From: Gemmatimonadota bacterium
GTDB lineage: Bacteria > Gemmatimonadota > Gemmatimonadetes > Gemmatimonadales > GWC2-71-9
Assembly: GCA_003221035.1 (NCBI GenBank)
Contig: QHUB01000030.1
Span: forward strand, 28,763 to 92,762
Length of the DNA: 64,000 nucleotides
Direction: 5' to 3'
Shown: positions 2,419 to 28,887 of the stretch, one piece after another
How positions within the stretch are numbered: position 1 is the first letter of the stretch
Layout of the letters: every line of letters begins with the position of its first letter
Program-made: the position numbers and the translations under genes
Notes under the pieces: model-generated
Told to the model about the DNA's origin: nothing
What the model saw: only the letters and a program-made list of their open reading frames with translations
Database searches by the model: none

Positions 2419-3203
2419 CGTTCGTCCTTCTTGCAGTCGCTCCAGCAGGGCGGGGTCGTCAGGTCCACGCGCCAGATGGGACCCGAGTAGAGAGGGCCTT
2501 CGAACCGCAGGAACGCGGGCGCCCCCTCGGTCATGATCCAGAGATGACTGTCGGGCGGTGTTTGATGCTTGATCGCCGCGCCGATGCGCTGCACAAAGTT
2601 GAGTTTGGGCTTCAGCGTAAACCGGGTGATGCCTGGTTCGGCGGCGGCCCCGCCCGGGACGAAGGCGAGTGGAACGACCAGCGGCTTTGGTGTGAACGCG
2701 ACGATGTGGACGGTCCGGCCGGCTTCCCGGTCGACGTTCTTTCCGATGATGGGAATCAGACCGTTGTAGGTATCGCTGGGAAGATCGAGCTTGCCGGTGT
2801 AGCGCTTCTCCTTCCCGTCGTCATGTGAGATCGTTGTGACGACGTACGCGCCGTCCTGCGAGAAACTCGCGTCGAGATCTTGCGCAAATGCCTTGCCGCG
2901 CTGCACGAGATGATACGATTCGAGCCGAAAGACCTGGTGCTGGCTGAATGTGACGGTTTCCTGGAAAAACGAGCTGTCCCCGAACCGGAACACGAGCTCG
3001 CTTTTTATATCGGAGTCGCGCGGTACCTGCAGCAGATCGCCGCGCGCGATCCGCTCACCCGACTGCGTGTGCAGCTCGAGAAAACCGTGGAGCGTTCCTT
3101 CCGCCCAGCGTACGCCGACGGCCGCCGGGCCGGGAGGGTCCGATCCAGCAAACAGCGCGGCCAGAGGGAGCAGCCAGTGGAGGCGCATACCACCGTCATA
3201 CAC
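2415..3203 (-). CDS. Secreted hypothetical protein
   Basis: The long ORF has coding-like composition and a signal-like MRLHWLLPLAALFAG (start probably at 3188). No motif recognised. Confidence 0.55.
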   Translation of the reverse strand: MYDGGMRLHWLLPLAALFAGSDPPGPAAVGVRWAEGTLHGFLELHTQSGERIARGDLLQVPRDSDIKSELVFRFGDSSFFQETVTFSQHQVFRLESYHLVQRGKAFAQDLDASFSQDGAYVVTTISHDDGKEKRYTGKLDLPSDTYNGLIPIIGKNVDREAGRTVHIVAFTPKPLVVPLAFVPGGAAAEPGITRFTLKPKLNFVQRIGAAIKHQTPPDSHLWIMTEGAPAFLRFEGPLYSGPIWRVDLTTPPCWSDCKKDER

Positions 3204-19226: not shown

Positions 19227-19298
19227 GCCACCGTAGCTCAGCGGTAGAGCTCTCGATTCGTAATCGAGTGGTCGTCGGTTCAATTCCGACCGGTGGCT
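19227..19298 (+). tRNA. tRNA-Thr (anticodon CGT)
   Basis: Hand-folded cloverleaf: acceptor GCCACCG/CGGTGGC, D arm GCTC/GAGC, anticodon arm CTCGA-TTCGTAA-TCGAG, T arm GTCGG-TTCAATT-CCGAC, discriminator T. No encoded CCA. Confidence 0.9.
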
Positions 19299-19313
19299 CT
19301 TTCGGCAGGCCTC

Positions 19314-19536: not shown

Positions 19537-21090
<1,554 letters not shown>

Positions 21091-21092
21091 CC

Positions 21093-22784
21093 ATGAGCCT
21101 CGAGCTGCTGACAGGCGCACAGATCCTGTGTCGCACACTGGTCGACGCGGGCGTCGAGGTCATGTTCGGCTATCCCGGCGGCGCCATCATGCCGTTTTAC
21201 GACGCGCTCCACGGCCACGCCGGCCTGCGACACATCCTCGTACGGCACGAGCAGGCGGCGGCCCACGCCGCCGATGGCTACGCCCGCGCCGGACAGCGCG
21301 TGGGTGTGTGCGTCGCGACCTCCGGGCCGGGCGCGACGAACCTCGTGACCGGGCTCGCCACCGCGCACATGGACGGCTCACCCGTGGTCGCCATCACGGG
21401 CCAGGTCGGCCGGCCGATGCTCGGCCGCGATGCGTTTCAGGAGACCGACGTCGTCGGCGTGACGATGCCGGTGACCAAGCACAACGTGCTGGTGCGCGAC
21501 GTCGAAGATCTCGCTGACGATGTGCGCGAGGCGATGGCGATCGCGATCGAGGGACGGCCGGGGCCCGTGCTCGTGGACGTGCCGAAGGATGTCCAGAACC
21601 AGAAAGCTGAATACCGGGAGTCAGGAGCCGGGAGTCGGGGATCGATGAAACCCCAGACTCCTGACTTCCGGCTCCTCGACGACGCCCTGAAGCAAGTCGC
21701 AAGTCTCATCGCCACCGCAGAGCGTCCCCTGCTCATGATCGGCCGCGGCGTCATCGTGAGCGGCGCATACGCGGAAGTCCGGGCGCTCGCCGAACGCACG
21801 GGCATGCCGGTGATCACCACGCTGCTCGGCATCAGCGCGTTCCCGCAGTCGCACGAGCTGCACCTCGGGATGCCGGGCATGCACGGCGAAGTCCACATCA
21901 ACAAGGCGATTCAATCCGCCGACTTGCTCGTCGGCATCGGCATGCGCTTCGACGACCGCGTGACGGGCAATACGGCCACCTTTGCCCCGCGCGCGAAGAT
22001 CGTGCACATCGATATCGACGGCGCCGCCATCGGTCGCACGGTGCGCTGCGACGTCGCGCTGGTCGGTGACGCTCGCGCCATCGTTCAACAGCTGCTCGCC
22101 GCAATCGCGCCGCGGGATTGCGTGCCCTGGCGGCAAGAGATTGCCGCGCTCATGCACCAGCGCGAAGAGTCGTTCGCGGGCGGGTTGTCGCCCGAAGTGA
22201 TCCTGTCGGCGCTCGCCGAGGTCACCGAGGGTCGCTGCACCATCGTGTCCGACGTCGGGCAGCATCAGATGTGGGTCGCCCAGCGCTATCCGTTCCAGCG
22301 GCCCAACACGCACATCACGTCCGGTGGACTGGGCGCGATGGGATTCGCCGTGCCCGCCGCGATGGGCGTGCGCCTGGCGCGACCCGACGAGCCGGTCTGG
22401 GCGATCTCGGGCGACGGCGGCTTTCAGATGAACATGGCGGAGATCGCGACGATGGTGCAGGAAGGCATCGAAGTGAAGCTCGCGATCTTCAACAACGGGT
22501 ACCTCGGCATGGTGCGGCAGTGGCAGCAGTTCTTCCATGGCGGCCGCTACTCGAACACGCCGATCTGGAGCCCGGACTATGTAAAGCTGGCCGCGGCGTA
22601 CGGAATTCCCGGCTGGCGCGTGAAGCATGCCGGTGAAGTGACGGACGTGCTCCAGGAGGCGAACGCCACGCCCGGCCCCACGCTCGTCGAGCTGGTGATC
22701 GAGCAGGAAGCCAACGTCTTCCCGATGATCGTCCCGGGCGGATCACTCTCCGAGCCGCTCGAAGCGGCTCCGGCCCAAACATGA
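21093..22784 (+). CDS. ilvB: Acetolactate synthase (AHAS) large subunit
   Basis: Start at [35 protein letters not shown] motif [16 protein letters not shown]. The upstream part of track ORF 20214..22784 is an out-of-gene extension. Confidence 0.95.
21615..21678. repeat. Long imperfect palindrome inside ilvB (GGGAGTC-type element)
   Basis: CCGGGAGTCAGGAGCCGGGAGTCGGGG-atcgatgaaa-CCCCAGACTCCTGACTTCCGGCTCC. Shares the 11-mer CGGGAGTCGGG and the 9-mer CTCCTGACT with the hairpin at 50779-50832. Confidence 0.6.
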
Positions 22785-24151
22785 ACGCGTCGCGCCGCGT
22801 CACCGTCCTGCTCCGTGACGATCTGTTGACGCTGGGCCGCGCGTGCAGCGTCTTGCGCCGGCGCAACATGCCGATTCACGATTTCGCGGTCGCCTCGCCG
22901 TCACCCGGCATGTGGCGGATGACCTGCGCGATCGACGTCGATGATCCGACCGCCGAGAATCTCGCGCTGTTGATGCAGAATGTGGTTGGCGTGAAGCAGG
23001 CCACCATTGGTGTACCGGCGCCCGACCAATTGCCTCTGCCCCCAGAACCATCCTCACCTTCCGGAGATATCATGAGCGCACCCGTGCGCATCTATTACGA
23101 GAAAGACACCGATCCTGCCCGCCTCACGGATCGGACGTTCGCGATCATCGGGTACGGCAGCCAGGGACATGCCCATGCGCTGAACCTGCGCGACTCGGGC
23201 GCCCGCGTGATCGTCGGACTGCGGCCGAATGGCGCGTCGTGGAAACGCGCGGAGGCCGATGGCCTCGAGGTGCAGCCAGTGGCCGATGCCGCGGAAGCGG
23301 GCGACGTCATCATGCTCCTCGTGCCCGATCCGGAGCAGCGCGCGGTGTACGAAACCGCCGTGTTGCCGGCGCTGCGAGAGGGGAAGACGTTGATGTTCGC
23401 GCACGGCTTCAACATCCACTTCGGCGAGATCAAGCCGCCGCCCGGCGTCGATGTCTCGATGATCGCGCCCAAGTCTCCGGGTCATCTCGTGCGCAGCGAG
23501 TTCCAGGCGGGCCGCGGCGTGCCGGGTCTCGTGGCCATCCATCAGAACGCCAGCGGGAAGGCGCTCGAGAACGCGCTCGCGTACGGCACCGGTATCGGCT
23601 GTACGCGCGCCGGTGTGCTCGCCACCACGTTCGCCGAGGAAACCGAAACCGATCTGTTCGGGGAGCAGGCGGTGCTGTGCGGCGGCGTGACCGCGCTCAT
23701 CCAGGCCGGGTTCGAGACGCTGACCGAAGCGGGATACGCGCCGGAGATGGCGTACTTCGAATGTCTCCACGAGCTGAAGCTGATCGTGGATCTGATCTAC
23801 CGCGGTGGACTCGGCTTCATGCGCCACTCGATCAGCGATACGGCCGAGTACGGCGATCTGACCCGCGGCGAGCGCGTGATCAGCCCGGCGGTGCGTGAGG
23901 AAATGCGCCGCTTGTTGGCCGACATCCGCAGCGGCGTGTTTGCCAGGGAATGGATCGCCGAGTGTCGCAACGGCGCGCCCAAGTTCAACGAGCTGCGTCG
24001 CGCCGCGAAAGAGCATCAGATTGAGCAGGTCGGCGCGCGGCTGCGCGCGATGATGCCGTGGACCGAAGAGGGCAAGGGGGCGCAGGCTGGTCGCGCACGG
24101 CCGGTGGCAGGGGTGCAGCATGCTGCGCCCCTACAATCTTCGCGCGCGTGA
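22781..24151 (+). CDS. Single ORF: IlvN-like ACT domain, Pro/Ser linker, ketol-acid reductoisomerase (no intervening stop)
   Basis: ATGA overlap with the ilvB stop. Residues 1-76 resemble an AHAS small-subunit ACT domain ([33 protein letters not shown]...[11 protein letters not shown]...VVGVKQATI). Linker [21 protein letters not shown], then KARI in the same frame. Confidence 0.6.
23072..24151 (+). CDS. ilvC: Ketol-acid reductoisomerase (class I), independently initiable core
   Basis: GGAG at 23063-23066, 5 nt before ATG 23072. [12 protein letters not shown]...[19 protein letters not shown], and [17 protein letters not shown]. Confidence 0.9.
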
Positions 24152-25545
24152 CGAAGACGCTGTTCGAACGCGTCTGGGCGTCGCACGTCGTCAAGCAGCT
24201 CACGGACGACGTGGCGCTGCTGTATGTCGATCTGCATCTGATTCACGAAGTGACGTCGCCGCAGGCATTTGCAGGATTGAAGCGCGAGGGCCGCGCGGTA
24301 CGACGGCCCGAGCGCACGCTGGCGACGGTGGATCACAGCATCCCGACCGGTGATCGCTCGCTCCCGATCGCCGACGCCGTCGCGGCCCGTCAAGTCGACG
24401 TGCTCGGCGGCAACGCGCGGGAATTCGGGATCGAGCTGTTTGACCTCACGTCGCCGGGGCAGGGCATCGTCCACGTGATCGGTCCGGAGCTCGGCGCGAC
24501 GCAGCCCGGCATGGTGATCGTGTGCGGCGACTCGCACACGGCGACCCACGGCGCGTTCGGGGCGTTCGCGATCGGCATCGGCACGAGCGAGGTGGAGCAC
24601 GTGCTGGCGACGCAATGCATCGCGCTCTCCAAGCCACGCACCCTGGAAGCGCGCTTTACCGGGAGCCGGGGGCCGGGAGTGGGGGCTAAGGACTTGATCC
24701 TGGCGCTCATCGGGAAGATCGGCACGGCCGGCGCGACGGGACATGTCATCGAGTACACGGGCGAAGCGATCCGCGCGCTCTCGATGGAAGAGCGGATGAC
24801 GGTGTGCAACATGTCGATCGAGGCCGGCGCGCGCGCCGGGATGATCGCGCCCGATGATGTGACATTTGCGTATCTGAAGGGACGACCGCGGGTGCACACC
24901 GGTGAGGCGTGGACCAAAGACGTCGCGCGCTGGCGTAGACTCCGAAGCAATTCAGGAGCGCGCTACGACACGCAGGTCATGCTCGATGCATCGAGAATTG
25001 GACCGCAAGTCACGTGGGGGACGACTCCCGGCATGGTCGCTGACATCACGGCGCGCGTGCCGGATCCCGCGGCGCTGGGCACCGACGCCGAGCGCCACGC
25101 GGCCCAGCGCGCGCTGCAATACATGGGGCTCGAGCCTGGAACGCCGCTCGCCGGCATTCCGATCGATCGCGTGTTCCTCGGCTCCTGCACGAATGCCCGT
25201 ATCGAAGACCTGCGCGCCGCGGCCGGCGTGGTGCGCGGCCGCCACGTGGCGGCGCGCGTGCGCGCCATGGTGGTGCCCGGCTCGCAGCGCGTGAAAGCGC
25301 AAGCGGAAGCGGAGGGCCTCGATCAGGTATTCCGCGAAGCCGGGTTCGAGTGGCGCAACGCGGGCTGCTCGATGTGTCTCGGCATGAATGACGACATCCT
25401 GGGCGCCGGCGAGCGCTGCGCCGCGACGTCGAACCGCAATTTTGAAGGGCGCCAGGGACGCGGCGGCCGGACGCATCTCATGAGCCCGATGATGGCGGCA
25501 GCGGCGGCCATCGAAGGCCATCTCGTGGACGTGCGCGGATGGTGA
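24148..25545 (+). CDS. leuC: 3-isopropylmalate dehydratase large subunit
   Basis: GTG start (GTGA overlap with the ilvC stop). V(M)[14 protein letters not shown]...[15 protein letters not shown]. Cys ligand regions CNMSIE and [11 protein letters not shown]...GCSMCLGMN. Confidence 0.95.
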
Positions 25546-26126
25546 AGCCGTTCACCCAGCACCGGGGCCGCCTGGTCACGTTGCCGCGGCGCGACGTCGA
25601 TACCGATCAGATCATCCCCAAGCAGTTTCTGAAAGGCATCGAGCGGACCGGCTTCGGGCCCGCGCTGTTCTGCGATTGGCGCTACCGGCCCGACGGCTCG
25701 CCCGACCCCGGCTTCGAGCTCAACAGTCCGGCGGCGGAGGGCGCGACGATTCTGGTGACCGGTCCGAACTTCGGTTGCGGGTCTTCGCGCGAGCACGCCG
25801 TGTGGGCGCTCGCCGAATACGGATTCCGTGCCGTCATCGCGCCATCCTTCGCGGACATCTTCACCTCGAACTGTTATCGCAACGGTCTTCTGCCGGTACG
25901 CCTGCCGGCACCGGAGGTGGATGCGCTGATCCGGAGCACCGAAGGCGGAATCCATGAACTGACGATCGATCTCGAGAAACAGCTCATCACGGACGATCGC
26001 GGATTCAAGACGGGGTTCCGCGCTGATCCATACGGCCGCGAGCTGCTGCTGCGCGGTCTCGACGAAATCGGACGGACGCTGCTGGACGAGCCGAGTATCG
26101 CGGCGTATGAGCGGAGACACCCATGA
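25539..26126 (+). CDS. leuD: 3-isopropylmalate dehydratase small subunit
   Basis: [31 protein letters not shown]. Confidence 0.95.
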
Positions 26127-27208
26127 AGACATACCGCATCGCCGTGCTCTCCGGAGACGGCATCGGACCTGAAGTCATCGCGCAGGCGGTGCGCGTGTTG
26201 GAGGCGGTCGGCGAACGATTCGCGATTCGCTTTGCGCTCGACGCCCTTCCGGTCGGCGCGGCGGGTGTGCGCGCGGCGAACAATCCACTGCCGCCCGAGA
26301 CGCGCGTGGCAGTCACTCGAAGTGATGCGGTGTTGCTCGGTGCCGTGGGCGATCCGTCCTTGGACACCGCCCCCCGCGAGCTCAAGCCGGAGACCGGCCT
26401 GCTCGCGCTGCGCAAGCTGTTGAACGTCTACGCCAATCTGCGGCCCGTGGCGCTTCACCCGGCGCTCGCGGCGTGCTCGCCGCTCAAGCCCAATCGGCTC
26501 CGCGGCGTGGATCTGCTCGTCGTGCGCGAGCTGACGGGCGGGCTCTACTATGGAGAGCCGCGCGGCCGAAACGGCACCCGCGCCGTCAATACGCTTACCT
26601 ATACGACTGCCGAAATCGAACGTATCGCGCGCGTCGCATTCGAGGCGGCGCGTCCCCGCAGACGATTGGTCACGTCTGTGGACAAGGCGAACGTGCTCGA
26701 GGTGTCCCAGCTGTGGCGGGAGACGGTGACGGCGGTCGCGCGTGCCTTCCCGGATGTGCGCCTCGAGCACTCCTACGTCGATACCGCCGCCATGCGCCTC
26801 GTCAGCGATCCGGCGTCGCTCGACGTCGTGCTGACCGAGAACATGTTCGGCGACATCCTGAGCGACGAAGCCGCCGTACTGGCCGGATCGCTCGGCCTGC
26901 TGCCTTCTGCTTCGCTCGGCGACGGACCTGGACTGTTCGAGCCTGTGCACGGCTCGGCGCCGCCGCTGGCGGGCCGGGACGTCGCCAATCCCCTCGGCGC
27001 GATTGCGACCGTCGGTCTGTTGTTGCGGCACGGTCTGCACCTGCCCGAGGCCGCGGATGCGGTGGACCAGGCGGTCGCCGCGGCGCTCGAGGCCGGCGCG
27101 CGCACGGAGGACATCGCTCACGCCGGCGAGCAGATTATCGGCACGAAGGAGATGGGAGCGCGGATAGTGGAGCTGGTATTGGCCGAGGCACTCGAGGGAC
27201 TGTCATGA
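26123..27208 (+). CDS. leuB: 3-isopropylmalate dehydrogenase
   Basis: [42 protein letters not shown] overlaps on both sides. Confidence 0.95.
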
Positions 27209-28887
27209 CGGGGAAGGACAATTTCCGCAGCAAGGCGATCACCGAAGGATTGGAGCGCGCCCCGAACCGGGCGATGCTGCGCGCGGTGGGCTTTCGCGAC
27301 GGTGATTTCGGCAAGCCGATCGTCGGTGTCGCGAGCGCGCACAGCACCATCACGCCCTGCAATGCCGGGTTGGACCGATTGGCGAAGCGGGCGGAGCAGG
27401 CGCTGCGCGAAGCCGGCACGATGCCCCAGACATTCGGCACGATCACCGTCAGCGACGGCATCTCGATGGGGACCGAGGGCATGCGCTATTCGCTCGTGTC
27501 GCGCGAGGTGATCGCCGACTCGATCGAGACGGCGTGCGGCGCGCAGCGCATGGACGGACTGGTCGCGATCGGCGGGTGCGACAAGAATATGCCGGGCGCT
27601 TTGATCGCGATCGCGCGACTCGATATCCCCGCGGTCTTCGTCTACGGCGGCACGATCAAGCCCGGGCACTTCGGCGGCCGCGATCTCACGGTGGTCAGTG
27701 TGTTCGAGGCGGTCGGCGCGGCCGGGGCGGGGCGCATGCCCGAGAGCGAGCTGCTCGAGATCGAGCGCCGAGCCTGTCCCGGCGCCGGCTCCTGCGGCGG
27801 CATGTTCACCGCGAACACGATGTCGTCCGCAATCGAAGCGCTCGGCATGAGCCTCCCCGGCACCTCGACCATGGCGGCAGAGGATCAGGAAACGGCGGAC
27901 GCCGCTGAGCGCGCCGGGCAGGTTCTGGCGGCGGCGGTGCGGGCGCGGCGCACACCGCGCCAGATCCTCACGCGCAAGGCGTTCGAAAACGCGATCGCCG
28001 TCGTCATGGCGATCGGTGGCTCCACAAACGCGGTCCTGCATCTGCTCGCGATTGCCCGGGCCGCCGGCGTGCCACTCGTGATCGACGACTTCGAGACGAT
28101 TCGCGCGCGCGTGCCCGTACTGTGCGATCTGAAGCCCTCCGGGCGCTACGTCGCGACCGATCTGCATCGTGCGGGGGGAATTCCGCAGGTCATGAGCATC
28201 CTCCTGGCGAACGGCGTGCTCCACGGTGACGCGCTGACGATCGACGGCCGATCTGTTGCCGAGGTGTTGAAAGAAACCCCGTCGACGCCGTCGCCGAGCC
28301 AGGACGTGATTCATCCGTGGGCCACGCCGCTCGCGCCGACGGGGCACATCGTGATCTTGCGCGGCAACCTCGCGCCTGAAGGCGCCGTCGCCAAAGTCAG
28401 CGGCAACGGTTCGCACCGAATCACCGGACCCGCGCGGGTTTTCGACTCCGAGGAGGCATGCCTTGCCGCGATTCTCGCGGGCGGTGTGAAGCAGGGCGAC
28501 GTCGTCATCATCCGCTACGAAGGTCCGAAGGGCGGACCCGGGATGCGCGAGATGCTTGCACCCACGGCGGCGCTCATCGGCGCGGGATTGGGGGAGAGCG
28601 TCGGCCTCATCACCGACGGGCGGTTCTCCGGCGGCTCGCATGGACTCGTCGTCGGGCACGTCGCGCCGGAAGCGGCGCTGGGCGGTCCGCTCGCCCTGGT
28701 CCGGGAAGGCGACTCCGTCACGATCGACGCGGGCAAACGCCGGCTCGAGATCAACATTTCCGAGCAAGAGCTCGCCGTGCGCCGGACCCGGTGGCAGCCC
28801 CCGCCGCCGCGCTACACCGCCGGCGTGCTGGCGAAATACGCTCGCCTCGTCTCCAGCAGCAGTGAGGGCGCGGTCACCGATGGTTGA
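27205..28887 (+). CDS. ilvD: Dihydroxy-acid dehydratase
   Basis: Start at [30 protein letters not shown]. The track ORF 26473..28887 N-terminus is an artefactual extension over leuB. Confidence 0.95.

What the first reader, a model, noticed from the sequence alone, without database searches (positions are those of the whole stretch)
22781..24151. No stop codon between an IlvN-like ACT domain and ketol-acid reductoisomerase
The regulatory AHAS small subunit is expected directly after ilvB. An ORF starts there with an ATGA overlap and encodes a short ACT-like domain of about 76 aa and a Pro/Ser-rich linker. It then continues in the same frame into a complete KARI (ilvC) without a stop.

GGAG lies 5 nt upstream of the internal ATG 23072, so free KARI could also be made. 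The locus may therefore yield two products, ACT-KARI and KARI alone. Alternatively it may tether the valine-sensing domain of AHAS to the next pathway enzyme.

The ACT part is also much shorter than IlvH-type small subunits. I am not aware of a described ACT::KARI fusion.
Basis: partly seen in the sequence, partly recalled or inferred. Interest (0 to 1): 0.6.

Follow-up and report, generated by a model that had tools for sequence, protein, structure and literature searches.

The report
Conserved AHAS-regulatory-domain::KARI fusion gene
In a clade of uncultured soil Gemmatimonadales, the small regulatory domain of the first branched-chain amino-acid enzyme (AHAS) is genuinely fused in frame to the next enzyme (KARI). 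The old KARI ribosome-binding site and start codon are kept inside the gene, so a tethered and a free KARI are probably both made.

Summary
ORF 22781-24151 (456 aa) has no in-frame stop. Residues 1-77 form a single ACT domain homologous to AHAS small subunits. Residues 78-97 are a disordered linker, and residues 98-456 are a complete class I KARI.

It is not an error:
- The identical protein occurs in three further assemblies.
- In an ACT-based metagenome scan, 31 of 33 distinct linker sequences put the ACT domain in frame with KARI.
- The in-frame linkers have 15 nucleotide lengths, all multiples of three, and no stop in 631 codons. The other two frames have 29 stops in 1200 codons.
- More than 120 database protein clusters of 438-489 aa share the architecture. 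All are named only "ketol-acid reductoisomerase".

The ACT part is under purifying selection (dN/dS 0.09-0.35). GGAG at -9..-6 and the KARI ATG are nearly invariant inside an otherwise hypervariable linker, which argues for internal initiation of free KARI.

The fusion is evolutionarily labile. Two relatives and part of a sister clade have a separate ~89-99 aa ACT gene ending in an ATGA overlap. In the sister clade one C in a C-run separates the two states.

No paper describing this fusion was found. Function (tethering KARI to AHAS) is inferred. Verdict: a new variant of a known kind, of moderate interest.

The parts
21093..22784 (+). ilvB, AHAS catalytic subunit (563 aa). Its stop TGA 22782-22784 overlaps the start of the fusion ORF.
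   Evidence: Pfam TPP_enzyme_N/M/C. Start located at ATG 21093, 'MSLELLTG'. Same gene upstream in relatives.
22781..24151 (+). Whole fusion ORF, 456 aa: ACT domain, linker, class I KARI.
   Evidence: Exact protein P0056 found in three further assemblies.
22781..22784 (+). ATGA stop/start overlap between ilvB and the ACT domain (termination-reinitiation coupling). No obvious SD upstream in the window.
   Evidence: ATGA present in all loci that have the intact start. Upstream context.
22781..23011 (+). Single ACT domain (aa 1-77) homologous to the N-terminal ACT domain of AHAS small subunits. Conserved motif DLLTLxRA...LRRRNxPI.
   Evidence: A PDB profile search hits only AHAS regulatory subunits (6u9h 2.5e-11, 2f1f 7.8e-7). 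A canonical small-subunit HMM scores E=1.6e-21 over HMM positions 3-76. AF2 pLDDT 89.9 with beta-alpha-beta-beta-alpha-beta topology. Foldseek finds ACT folds. GC3 0.87. dN/dS 0.09-0.35.
23012..23071 (+). Pro/Ser-rich linker (aa 78-97), predicted disordered and hypervariable in length and sequence among relatives.
   Evidence: pLDDT <50 for aa 82-109. GC3 0.455 for aa 76-97. Linker lengths of 10-52 aa in 111 relatives. 30-156 nt, all multiples of 3, no stops. No significant RNA structure, z=+0.67.
23063..23066 (+). GGAG Shine-Dalgarno-like motif 5 nt upstream of the KARI ATG, inside the fusion ORF.
   Evidence: G/G/A/G are each present in 30-31 of the 32 unique upstream sequences at -9..-6, with TC at -12/-11, in an otherwise variable linker.
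23072..23074 (+). Internal ATG, the ancestral KARI start codon (M98).
   Evidence: Invariant in 32/32 unique DNA contexts and 70/70 aligned proteins. It is the start used in NCBI protein PYO93619.1.
23072..24151 (+). Class I ketol-acid reductoisomerase (ilvC) part, 359 aa including a ~30-aa C-terminal tail.
   Evidence: KARI_N and KARI_C. NF004017 535 bits, TIGR00465 444 bits.
24110..24131 (.). 22-nt near-perfect palindrome GGGGTGCAGCATGCTGCGCCCC inside the C-terminal tail of KARI (translated ...GVQHAAPL...). The same element is inserted in the ACT-KARI linker of relatives.
   Evidence: 24-nt insertion allele in L047.
24148..24151 (+). GTGA overlap between the KARI stop and the leuC start.

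Best explanation
ORF 22781-24151 is a real, selectively maintained gene fusion found in uncultured soil Gemmatimonadales. The AHAS small (regulatory) subunit has been reduced to its single N-terminal ACT domain. That domain is joined through a disordered, freely evolving linker to the N-terminus of class I KARI, the next enzyme of the pathway.

Shown:
- the fused architecture;
- homology and fold of the ACT part, and purifying selection on it;
- maintenance of the reading frame across many linker-length changes;
- conservation of an SD plus ATG at the old KARI start.

Inferred:
1. Ribosomes that finish ilvB re-initiate at the ATGA overlap and make ACT-linker-KARI in step with IlvB.
2. The conserved internal GGAG/ATG additionally gives free 359-aa KARI, so the locus yields two isoforms.
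3. The ACT domain still pairs with IlvB as its activating subunit. The long isoform would then physically tether KARI (itself an oligomer that could mix long and short chains) to AHAS. This couples the amounts and the proximity of the two consecutive enzymes that make and consume labile acetolactate.

The fusion arose from, and can revert to, a separate ~89-99 aa ACT gene with an ATGA overlap, by small indels at the junction.
For: Architecture.

Not an artefact:
- The identical junction occurs in three further assemblies; two differ from the window by 3-4 bases over the ORF yet encode the identical protein.
- A 438-aa in-frame ORF is present in a Gemmatimonadales MAG at 59% ACT identity.
- In the ACT-based metagenome scan, 31 of 33 distinct linker sequences are in frame.
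- The top 120 protein clusters are all 438-489 aa with >=94% coverage.

Frame selection:
- 15 in-frame nucleotide lengths, all multiples of 3.
- 0 of 631 frame-0 codons are stops, against 29 of 1200 off-frame codons.

ACT domain is an AHAS small-subunit homologue:
- The profile reaches canonical 160-175 aa small subunits that carry ALS_ss_C.
- PDB hits are exclusively AHAS regulatory subunits.
- ACT fold.
- dN/dS is 0.09-0.35.
- It sits directly after ilvB with an ATGA overlap in every locus that has the intact start.
- No other small subunit is found in the 64-kb window.

Internal initiation:
- TCYGGAG and the ATG are nearly invariant, including the wobble A of the GGA codon, while the rest of the linker varies.
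- M98 and G95 are invariant in 70 proteins.

Origin:
- A separate 89-99 aa ACT gene with the same SD occurs in L001, L023 and L044-L046.
- A single C in a C-run distinguishes the fused from the separate state in the sister clade.
Against: - No protein-level evidence exists. Whether the long form accumulates, is cleaved in the linker, or binds IlvB is untested.
- The fused state is not obligatory. L001 and L023 in this clade, and many members of the sister clade, have separate genes, so tethering cannot be essential.
- The linker behaves like tolerated spacer: GC3 0.455, palindrome and tandem-repeat insertions.
- Many length changes come from 24- and 36-nt units that are multiples of three by construction. 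This weakens the frame-selection statistics.
- The loci are phylogenetically non-independent.
- Canonical valine-site residues are only partly conserved: N29->P31 and G14->L16.
- A second small-subunit gene elsewhere in the genome cannot be excluded.
- The full-length AF2 model gives no information on domain docking (pTM 0.42).
Confidence: 0.68

Rival explanations
1. Tolerated read-through without a function of its own. The ACT small subunit works equally well free or attached, and the fused state is one of two near-neutral outcomes of indels at an overlapping ATGA junction. Tethering would bring no benefit, and the linker might even be clipped by proteases.
For: - Both states exist in the sister clade and differ by one C in a C-run.
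- L001 and L023 are separate within the window's own clade.
- The linker is hypervariable and low in GC3, and it accepts palindrome and tandem-repeat insertions.
Against: - In the window's clade 31 of 33 distinct linkers are in frame, over at least 14 length changes that are all multiples of 3.
- No frame-0 stop occurs in 631 codons.
- Rough P values are 5e-5 to 2e-3.
- One-nucleotide indels, the commonest kind, would flip the state often if it were neutral.
Confidence: 0.2
2. The ACT domain has been recruited as a cis-regulatory domain of KARI itself, giving allosteric control of KARI by an amino acid as in SerA, IlvA or PheA. It would no longer serve AHAS.
For: - ACT domains commonly regulate the enzyme they are fused to; the structural neighbours include the ACT domain of 3-phosphoglycerate dehydrogenase.
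- Canonical valine-site polar residues are changed and a distinctive invariant LRRRNxPI motif has evolved.
Against: - The same domain occurs as a free-standing 89-aa gene between ilvB and ilvC in close relatives.
- It is always ATGA-coupled to ilvB.
- Linkers of 10-52 disordered residues with no conserved sequence are an unlikely allosteric connection.
- The conserved internal start would make unregulated KARI.
- No other small subunit for IlvB is seen in the window.
Confidence: 0.08
3. Only KARI starting at ATG 23072 is made, as in NCBI protein PYO93619.1. The 291 nt upstream would be an untranslated spacer that happens to be open in a GC-rich genome.
For: - NCBI lists a 359-aa product identical to aa 98-456.
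- Pfam finds no domain in aa 1-97.
- A strong SD precedes ATG 23072.
Against: - GC3 is 0.87 and dN/dS is 0.09-0.35.
- The AF2 ACT fold has pLDDT 90.
- E=1.6e-21 to a canonical small-subunit HMM, and PDB profile hits are only to AHAS regulatory subunits.
- The same sequence is a called stand-alone gene in relatives.
Confidence: 0.03
4. Sequencing or assembly error, or a pseudogene, has removed the stop of a separate ilvN.
For: The closest single relative first found (L001, 77% ACT identity) has a separate 99-aa gene and a net 2-nt length difference in the tail.
Against: - The junction is identical in further assemblies, two of which differ from the window at 3-4 other positions of the ORF.
- The state is conserved in >120 protein clusters and in 31 distinct linker sequences.
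- Both halves are under purifying selection.
Confidence: 0.01

Closest known systems
Short single-ACT AHAS small subunits (E. coli IlvN, 96 aa, and IlvM, 87 aa; PDB 5ypp for IlvN)
   Same: One ACT domain of ~75-90 aa with no ALS_ss_C domain. The gene lies immediately after the catalytic-subunit gene. Foldseek matches IlvN 5ypp (TM 0.77). Free-standing 89-aa versions exist in sister Gemmatimonadales.
   Different: Here the domain is covalently joined to KARI. Sequence identity to IlvN is only ~10%; it is closer to the ACT1 domain of IlvH-type subunits (24-25%). It carries its own invariant DLLTLxRA / LRRRNxPI motifs.
IlvH-type two-domain AHAS regulatory subunits (E. coli IlvH 2f1f, A. thaliana 6u9h/6vz8, yeast Ilv6 6u9d)
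   Same: These are the best and only sequence-profile hits in the PDB, aligned over the N-terminal valine-binding ACT domain. The hydrophobic valine-site residues L9/L16/V35 are conserved as L11/L18/V37. Canonical 175-aa versions exist in other Gemmatimonadales.
   Different: The C-terminal ALS_ss_C domain is absent. N29 is replaced by Pro and G14 by Leu in the gap-free alignment. The domain is fused to KARI.
Class I ketol-acid reductoisomerase (IlvC)
   Same: Full KARI_N plus a single KARI_C, with equivalog-level scores. The ancestral start codon and SD are retained.
   Different: It carries a 97-aa N-terminal extension (ACT plus linker). It also has a variable C-terminal tail that contains a palindromic insertion.
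Enzymes with a covalently attached ACT regulatory domain (SerA 3-phosphoglycerate dehydrogenase, IlvA, PheA)
   Same: An ACT domain and a metabolic enzyme on one chain. The SerA ACT domain is among the top structural matches.
   Different: In those enzymes the ACT domain regulates its own catalytic domain and is rigidly packed. Here the ACT domain descends from the regulator of the preceding enzyme, and it is joined by a disordered, non-conserved linker.
Bacterial genes with in-frame internal translation starts that give two isoforms (for example infB, clpB, cheA; named from general knowledge, not tested here)
   Same: A conserved SD plus ATG lies inside a longer ORF in the same frame.
   Different: Here the internal start is the relic start of a formerly separate gene. 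Production of two isoforms has not been demonstrated.

Membership tests
AHAS regulatory (small) subunit, ACT domain | Beta-alpha-beta-beta-alpha-beta ACT fold | tested here: met
   AF2 N-domain model has pLDDT 89.9 with E3-12 H15-27 E32-41 E44-53 H55-66 E71-77. Foldseek matches ACT domains at TM 0.8.
AHAS regulatory (small) subunit, ACT domain | Sequence homology to known AHAS small subunits | tested here: met
   A profile of 31 N-domains hits only AHAS regulatory subunits in the PDB (E 2.5e-11 to 5e-3). The canonical small-subunit HMM scores E=1.6e-21. The profile reaches ALS_ss_C-bearing proteins. As a single sequence it is below the curated cut-offs: TIGR00119 gives 16 bits against 56.9, and there is no Pfam hit.
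AHAS regulatory (small) subunit, ACT domain | Gene immediately downstream of, and coupled to, the catalytic-subunit gene | tested here: met
   ATGA overlap with ilvB in the window and in all loci that have the intact start.
AHAS regulatory (small) subunit, IlvH type | C-terminal ALS_ss_C domain | tested here: not met
   No Pfam ALS_ss_C. Only positions 3-76 of the 171-position HMM are matched. It therefore resembles the short IlvN/IlvM type, not the IlvH type.
AHAS regulatory (small) subunit, ACT domain | Valine-binding residues (E. coli IlvH N11, N29, L9, L16, V35 per Kaplun 2006 as cited in PMC11893703; loop Gly14 from own knowledge) | tested here: inconclusive
   In the gap-free HMM alignment, L9/L16/V35 are kept as L11/L18/V37. 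N11 becomes D13 (S in most relatives; C. glutamicum also has D here). N29 becomes P31 and G14 becomes L16. An invariant N29 two residues upstream might substitute.
AHAS regulatory (small) subunit, ACT domain | Binds and activates the catalytic subunit | not testable with these tools
   Needs biochemistry or multimer modelling.
Class I ketol-acid reductoisomerase | KARI_N Rossmann domain plus one KARI_C knotted domain, above equivalog cut-offs | tested here: met
   PF07991 238 bits and PF01450 218 bits. NF004017 535 bits against a 336 cut-off, and TIGR00465 444 bits against 226.
Two-isoform genes with an internal in-frame start | Conserved SD and start codon inside the ORF | tested here: met
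   G/G/A/G are each present in 30-31 of the 32 unique contexts at -9..-6, and the ATG in 32/32. M98 is invariant in 70 proteins.
Two-isoform genes with an internal in-frame start | Both protein products detected | not testable with these tools
   Needs proteomics, N-terminomics or ribosome profiling.
Conserved (non-accidental) gene fusion | Reading frame maintained across relatives despite indels | tested here: met
   31 distinct in-frame linkers with 15 nucleotide lengths, all multiples of 3. There are 0 stops in 631 frame-0 codons against 29 in 1200 off-frame codons. 22 linker lengths occur in 111 proteins. Exceptions are L001 and L023 (separate genes) and L033.

The most novel reading that the evidence does not exclude
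The ACT-KARI long isoform acts as an adaptor. Its ACT domain dimerises and docks onto IlvB like a normal small subunit, so KARI oligomers (mixed from long and internally initiated short chains) are held on AHAS. The resulting two-enzyme assembly would channel chemically labile 2-acetolactate and 2-aceto-2-hydroxybutyrate. The ratio of tethered to free KARI would be set by ilvB-coupled versus SD-driven initiation. This would be a natural AHAS-KARI metabolon, possibly with altered or lost valine feedback.
Probability: 0.3. Interest if true: 0.7.

Novelty: new variant of a known kind. Interest (0 to 1): 0.5.

Why it matters
**Why it matters for the pathway**
- AHAS and KARI catalyse consecutive steps of valine, leucine and isoleucine synthesis.
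- Their shared intermediate, acetolactate, decarboxylates spontaneously.
- Whether the two enzymes associate in vivo is not established.
- A natural, conserved fusion of the AHAS regulatory domain to KARI is a "Rosetta-stone" hint that they do.
- It gives a ready-made construct for testing tethering or channeling, which is relevant to engineering of isobutanol and branched-chain amino-acid production.

**Why it matters for annotation and evolution**
- The locus shows how overlapping ATGA junctions let genes fuse and split by single-base indels.
- Current annotation hides the architecture. The proteins are named only "ketol-acid reductoisomerase", or are started at the internal ATG, which leaves these genomes without an annotated AHAS small subunit.

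Tried and rejected
- Pfam on aa 1-97 found nothing, and NCBIfam gave only sub-threshold hits. Homology had to be shown with profiles.
- The first word-indexed search with the 97-aa N-terminus returned a single, unfused hit. That briefly suggested an artefact, but broader scans overturned it.
- An exact look-up of the 359-aa internal product found no record.
- The 359-aa cluster member P0186 turned out to be cut by a contig end 38 nt upstream of the ATG. It is therefore not evidence for a separate gene.
- RNA structure in the window's linker that might sequester the SD was not found (z=+0.67).
- Rfam found only a tRNA in the window.
- The 'type B' hairpin pattern has no copy in the window.
- The 22-nt palindrome has one copy in 64 kb, so in this genome stretch it is not an abundant REP.
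- The full-length AF2 model was poor in the KARI C-domain (pLDDT <50; shallow alignment, monomer). It says nothing about ACT-KARI contacts.
- Literature searches found no report of an ACT::KARI or ilvN/H::ilvC fusion, or of AHAS-KARI channeling. The library lacks most subscription journals.
- The ratio of fused to unfused genes in the sister clade could not be measured from protein lengths alone. Gene callers sometimes start KARI at the internal ATG.
Full report
**1. Observation**

The window carries a tightly packed branched-chain amino-acid operon on the + strand:

| Gene | Coordinates |
|---|---|
| leuA | 19537-21090 |
| ilvB | 21093-22784 |
| ORF in question | 22781-24151 |
| leuC (GTG start) | 24148-25545 |
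| leuD | 25539-26126 |
| leuB | 26123-27208 |
| ilvD | 27205-28887 |

- The ORF is 456 aa with no in-frame stop.
- It starts in an ATGA overlap with the ilvB stop and ends in a GTGA overlap with leuC.
- GGAG lies at 23063-23066, 5 nt before the ATG at 23072.
- Residues 98-456 are a complete class I KARI. Pfam KARI_N covers 115-278 and KARI_C covers 284-427. NCBIfam NF004017 scores 535 bits against a cut-off of 336.

**2. What the N-terminal 97 residues are**

Single-sequence searches are weak. There is no Pfam hit, and TIGR00119 acolac_sm gives E=0.009 over aa 6-71. Profiles are decisive:

- A two-sequence profile searched against 1.84 billion representatives reaches canonical 160-175 aa small subunits, for example P0009 at E=7e-11. 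These carry Pfam ALS_ss_C downstream of the matched ACT domain. One such cluster is named 'acetolactate synthase small subunit [Gemmatimonadales bacterium]'.
- A 31-sequence profile of the N-domain hits six PDB sequences, and all six are AHAS regulatory subunits: A. thaliana 6u9h (2.5e-11), E. coli IlvH 2f1f (7.8e-7), 2pc6, 2fgc, and fungal (yeast/Candida) 6u9d and 6wo1. All align over the N-terminal ACT domain.
- An HMM of canonical small subunits finds only this ORF in a six-frame translation of the whole window (E=1.6e-21). It matches only HMM positions 3-76 of 171. The ALS_ss_C half is therefore missing, and no second small subunit lies within the 64 kb.
- AlphaFold2 predicts a beta-alpha-beta-beta-alpha-beta fold at pLDDT 89.9. 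Foldseek returns ACT domains. The highest identities (24-25%) and lowest rmsd (1.3-1.6 Å) are to AHAS small subunits 6vz8 and 2f1f.
- The region is coding and constrained. GC3 is 0.87, like ilvB and KARI. dN/dS is 0.09-0.35, against ~0.1 for KARI.

In contrast, residues ~78-97 have GC3 0.455 and pLDDT below 50.

**3. Real or artefact?**

The first relative found was L001 (77% ACT identity). It has a separate 99-aa gene ending in an ATGA overlap with KARI, and a net 2-nt difference in a diverged tail. That finding alone would have suggested an error. Broader sampling reverses this.

- A Gemmatimonadales MAG (L002, 59% ACT identity) has a 438-aa in-frame ORF.
- A metagenome scan keyed on the ACT domain, and so blind to fusion state, returned 41 loci.
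- These loci, with L001, L002 and the window, give 33 distinct linker sequences. In 31 of them KARI is in frame 0.
- The exceptions:
  - L001 and L023 are separate genes terminating at ATGA.
  - L033 has a deletion that removes the SD.
  - L041 and L042 are error-ridden contigs from one sample.
  - L043 is truncated.
- Searching with the full protein gave 120 listed clusters. All are 438-489 aa with at least 94% coverage. All are named only 'ketol-acid reductoisomerase', several from NCBI 'MAG TPA: Gemmatimonadales bacterium'.
- The exact window protein (P0056) occurs in three further assemblies. Two differ from the window by 3-4 bases over the ORF while encoding the identical protein. The junction is identical in all three.
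- NCBI protein PYO93619.1 ('Gemmatimonadetes bacterium' MAG, 99.9-kb contig) equals aa 98-456. The depositor or pipeline therefore started KARI at the internal ATG.

**4. Evidence that the frame is selected**

- The in-frame linkers have 15 distinct nucleotide lengths (30-156 nt), all multiples of three.
- Frame 0 has 0 stops in 631 codons. The other frames have 16/600 and 13/600.
- Among 111 fused proteins there are 22 distinct linker lengths, from 10 to 52 aa.
- Treating distinct lengths as a lower bound on events gives at least 14 frame-preserving against 3 frame-changing. This gives P≈5e-5 if one third of indels were multiples of three. It gives P≈2e-3 if only the in-frame and ATGA frames are viable.
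- Caveats: the loci share ancestry, and part of the length variation comes from 24-nt and 36-nt units (section 7).

**5. Internal start**

- In 32 unique upstream contexts the linker is variable, with 0.2-0.9 bit per position.
- The exceptions are TC at -12/-11 and GGAG at -9..-6, at 1.4-1.8 bit. Each GGAG base is present in 30-31 of the 32 contexts.
- The ATG is invariant.
- The A at the wobble position of the GGA glycine codon is kept in a genome with GC3 of about 0.85. The constraint therefore acts on the nucleotides (a Shine-Dalgarno sequence), not on the peptide.
- G95 and M98 are invariant in 70 aligned proteins.
- The separate-gene loci have the same SD.
- The ACT start has no obvious SD and is always an ATGA overlap.
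- Inference: the long form is made by ribosomes coupled from ilvB, and free KARI is made from the internal SD/ATG.
- No RNA structure stands out in the window's linker (z=+0.67).

**6. Evolutionary context**

- Other Gemmatimonadales keep a canonical 175-aa small subunit.
- A sister clade, with ACT domains 30-48% identical to the window's, contains about 30 fused clusters of 434-458 aa. Their precomputed Pfam annotation does show ACT_AHAS_ss/ACT_5 plus the KARI domains.
- The same clade also has loci with a free-standing 89-aa ACT gene overlapping both neighbours by 4 nt (L044-L046).
- Fused L054 and separate L044/L045 differ by a single C in a C-run just before the ATG.
- Likely history: a two-domain IlvH lost its C-terminal domain to give a short single-ACT subunit. 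That subunit then fused and split repeatedly by small indels at the overlapping junction.
- In the window's clade the fused state is nearly fixed.

**7. Linker insertions (side observation)**

- A near-identical allele (L047/P0187, 464 aa) differs from the window by a 24-nt insertion. The insertion is a perfect 22-nt palindrome, GGGGCGCAGCATGCTGCGCCCC, plus a duplicated TA.
- The same palindrome, translated ...GAQHAAPL..., sits in the linkers of many relatives.
- In the window it sits in the C-terminal tail of KARI at 24110-24131.
- Other linkers carry one to three copies of a 36-nt unit (translated ...PPDPLSVPERG...) that contains a hairpin and an SD-like TTCCGGAGAG.
- Both unit sizes are multiples of three.

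**8. Valine site**

E. coli IlvH residues implicated in valine binding are N11, N29, L9, L16 and V35 (Kaplun 2006, as cited in PMC11893703). Valine binds the N-terminal ACT domain (PMC13381585). The gap-free alignment gives the following mapping:

| E. coli IlvH | Window | Status |
|---|---|---|
| L9 | L11 | conserved |
| L16 | L18 | conserved |
| V35 | V37 | conserved |
| N11 | D13 | replaced (S in most relatives; D also in C. glutamicum) |
| N29 | P31 | replaced |
| G14 (loop) | L16 | replaced; Leu is invariant here |

Valine sensitivity is therefore uncertain.

**9. Mechanism**

Shown: a conserved ACT(AHAS small subunit)-linker-KARI gene with a retained internal SD/ATG.

Inferred:
- Two isoforms are produced.
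- The ACT domain still serves IlvB.
- The long isoform tethers KARI to AHAS.

Rivals:
- a near-neutral, tolerated fusion (0.2);
- ACT recruited to regulate KARI (0.08);
- only KARI translated (0.03);
- artefact (0.01).

**10. Novelty**

Literature searches found no description of this fusion or of an AHAS-KARI complex. NCBIfam has no model that covers both halves. The architecture is abundant in databases but is annotated only as KARI. I rate it a new variant of a known kind: a domain fusion of known parts with a probable dual-start arrangement. Interest is moderate (0.5).

Noticed in passing
window 24110-24131; L047 ~945-968; linkers of L005, L007, L014-L016, L018-L021, L025, L036, L038-L040: A 22-nt GC-rich perfect palindrome, GGGGCGCAGCATGCTGCGCCCC, behaves like a tiny insertion element. 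In L047 it is inserted with a duplicated TA, 24 nt in total and therefore frame-preserving, into an otherwise near-identical copy of the window's linker. The window has one copy inside the translated C-terminal tail of KARI. In ~240 kb of fetched loci it was seen only in the ACT-KARI linker or the ilvC 3' tail, which are the only insertion-tolerant spots of this overlapping operon.
   Followed up: partly
L006 2743-2851: A 36-nt tandem repeat in three copies (91% matches) lies inside the ACT-KARI linker. Each unit holds a hairpin (CCCCCTCTCCG-TT-CCGGAGAGG) and an SD-like TTCCGGAGAG that resembles the segment just upstream of the KARI ATG. Single copies (translated ...PPDPLSVPERG...) occur in many other linkers, including the separate-gene locus L001.
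   Followed up: partly
L054 ~2760-2770 vs L044/L045 ~2995-3003: In the sister clade the fused and separate states differ by one C in a short C-run directly before the KARI ATG (GAGCAGCCCATGAGC vs GAGCAG-CCATGAGC). This is a potentially slippage-prone toggle between one gene and two.
   Followed up: partly
window 19537-28887: From ilvB to ilvD the genes are chained by 4-nt (ATGA/GTGA) or 7-nt (leuC/leuD, 25539-25545) overlaps; leuA and ilvB are 2 nt apart. Some starts have no recognisable SD (ACT domain, leuC) and others do (KARI, leuB, ilvD).
   Followed up: partly
window 19227-19299: tRNA-Thr (anticodon CGU) lies immediately upstream of leuA. It is the only Rfam or ARAGORN hit in the 64-kb window.
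   Followed up: no
window 22781-23071 (database annotation): NCBI protein PYO93619.1 (359 aa) starts at the internal ATG, so the ACT-coding 291 nt are probably unannotated in that MAG. Other pipelines call the 456-aa ORF but name it only 'ketol-acid reductoisomerase'. In either case the genome appears to lack an AHAS small subunit.
   Followed up: partly
L048, L049, L050 position 1 (= window 23034): Three deposited contigs (NCBI, ENA, JGI; ~6.05-6.08 kb) all end at the same base inside the linker, 38 nt before the KARI ATG. They are possibly the same assembly deposited three times. Alternatively the break may be caused by strain heterogeneity in the linker, such as the 24-nt palindrome polymorphism.
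   Followed up: no
L033 ~2725-2745: One relative (WNFK01047767.1) has a deletion that removes most of the linker and the SD. This puts the ACT ORF out of frame into KARI. It may be a pseudogene or an assembly error.
   Followed up: no
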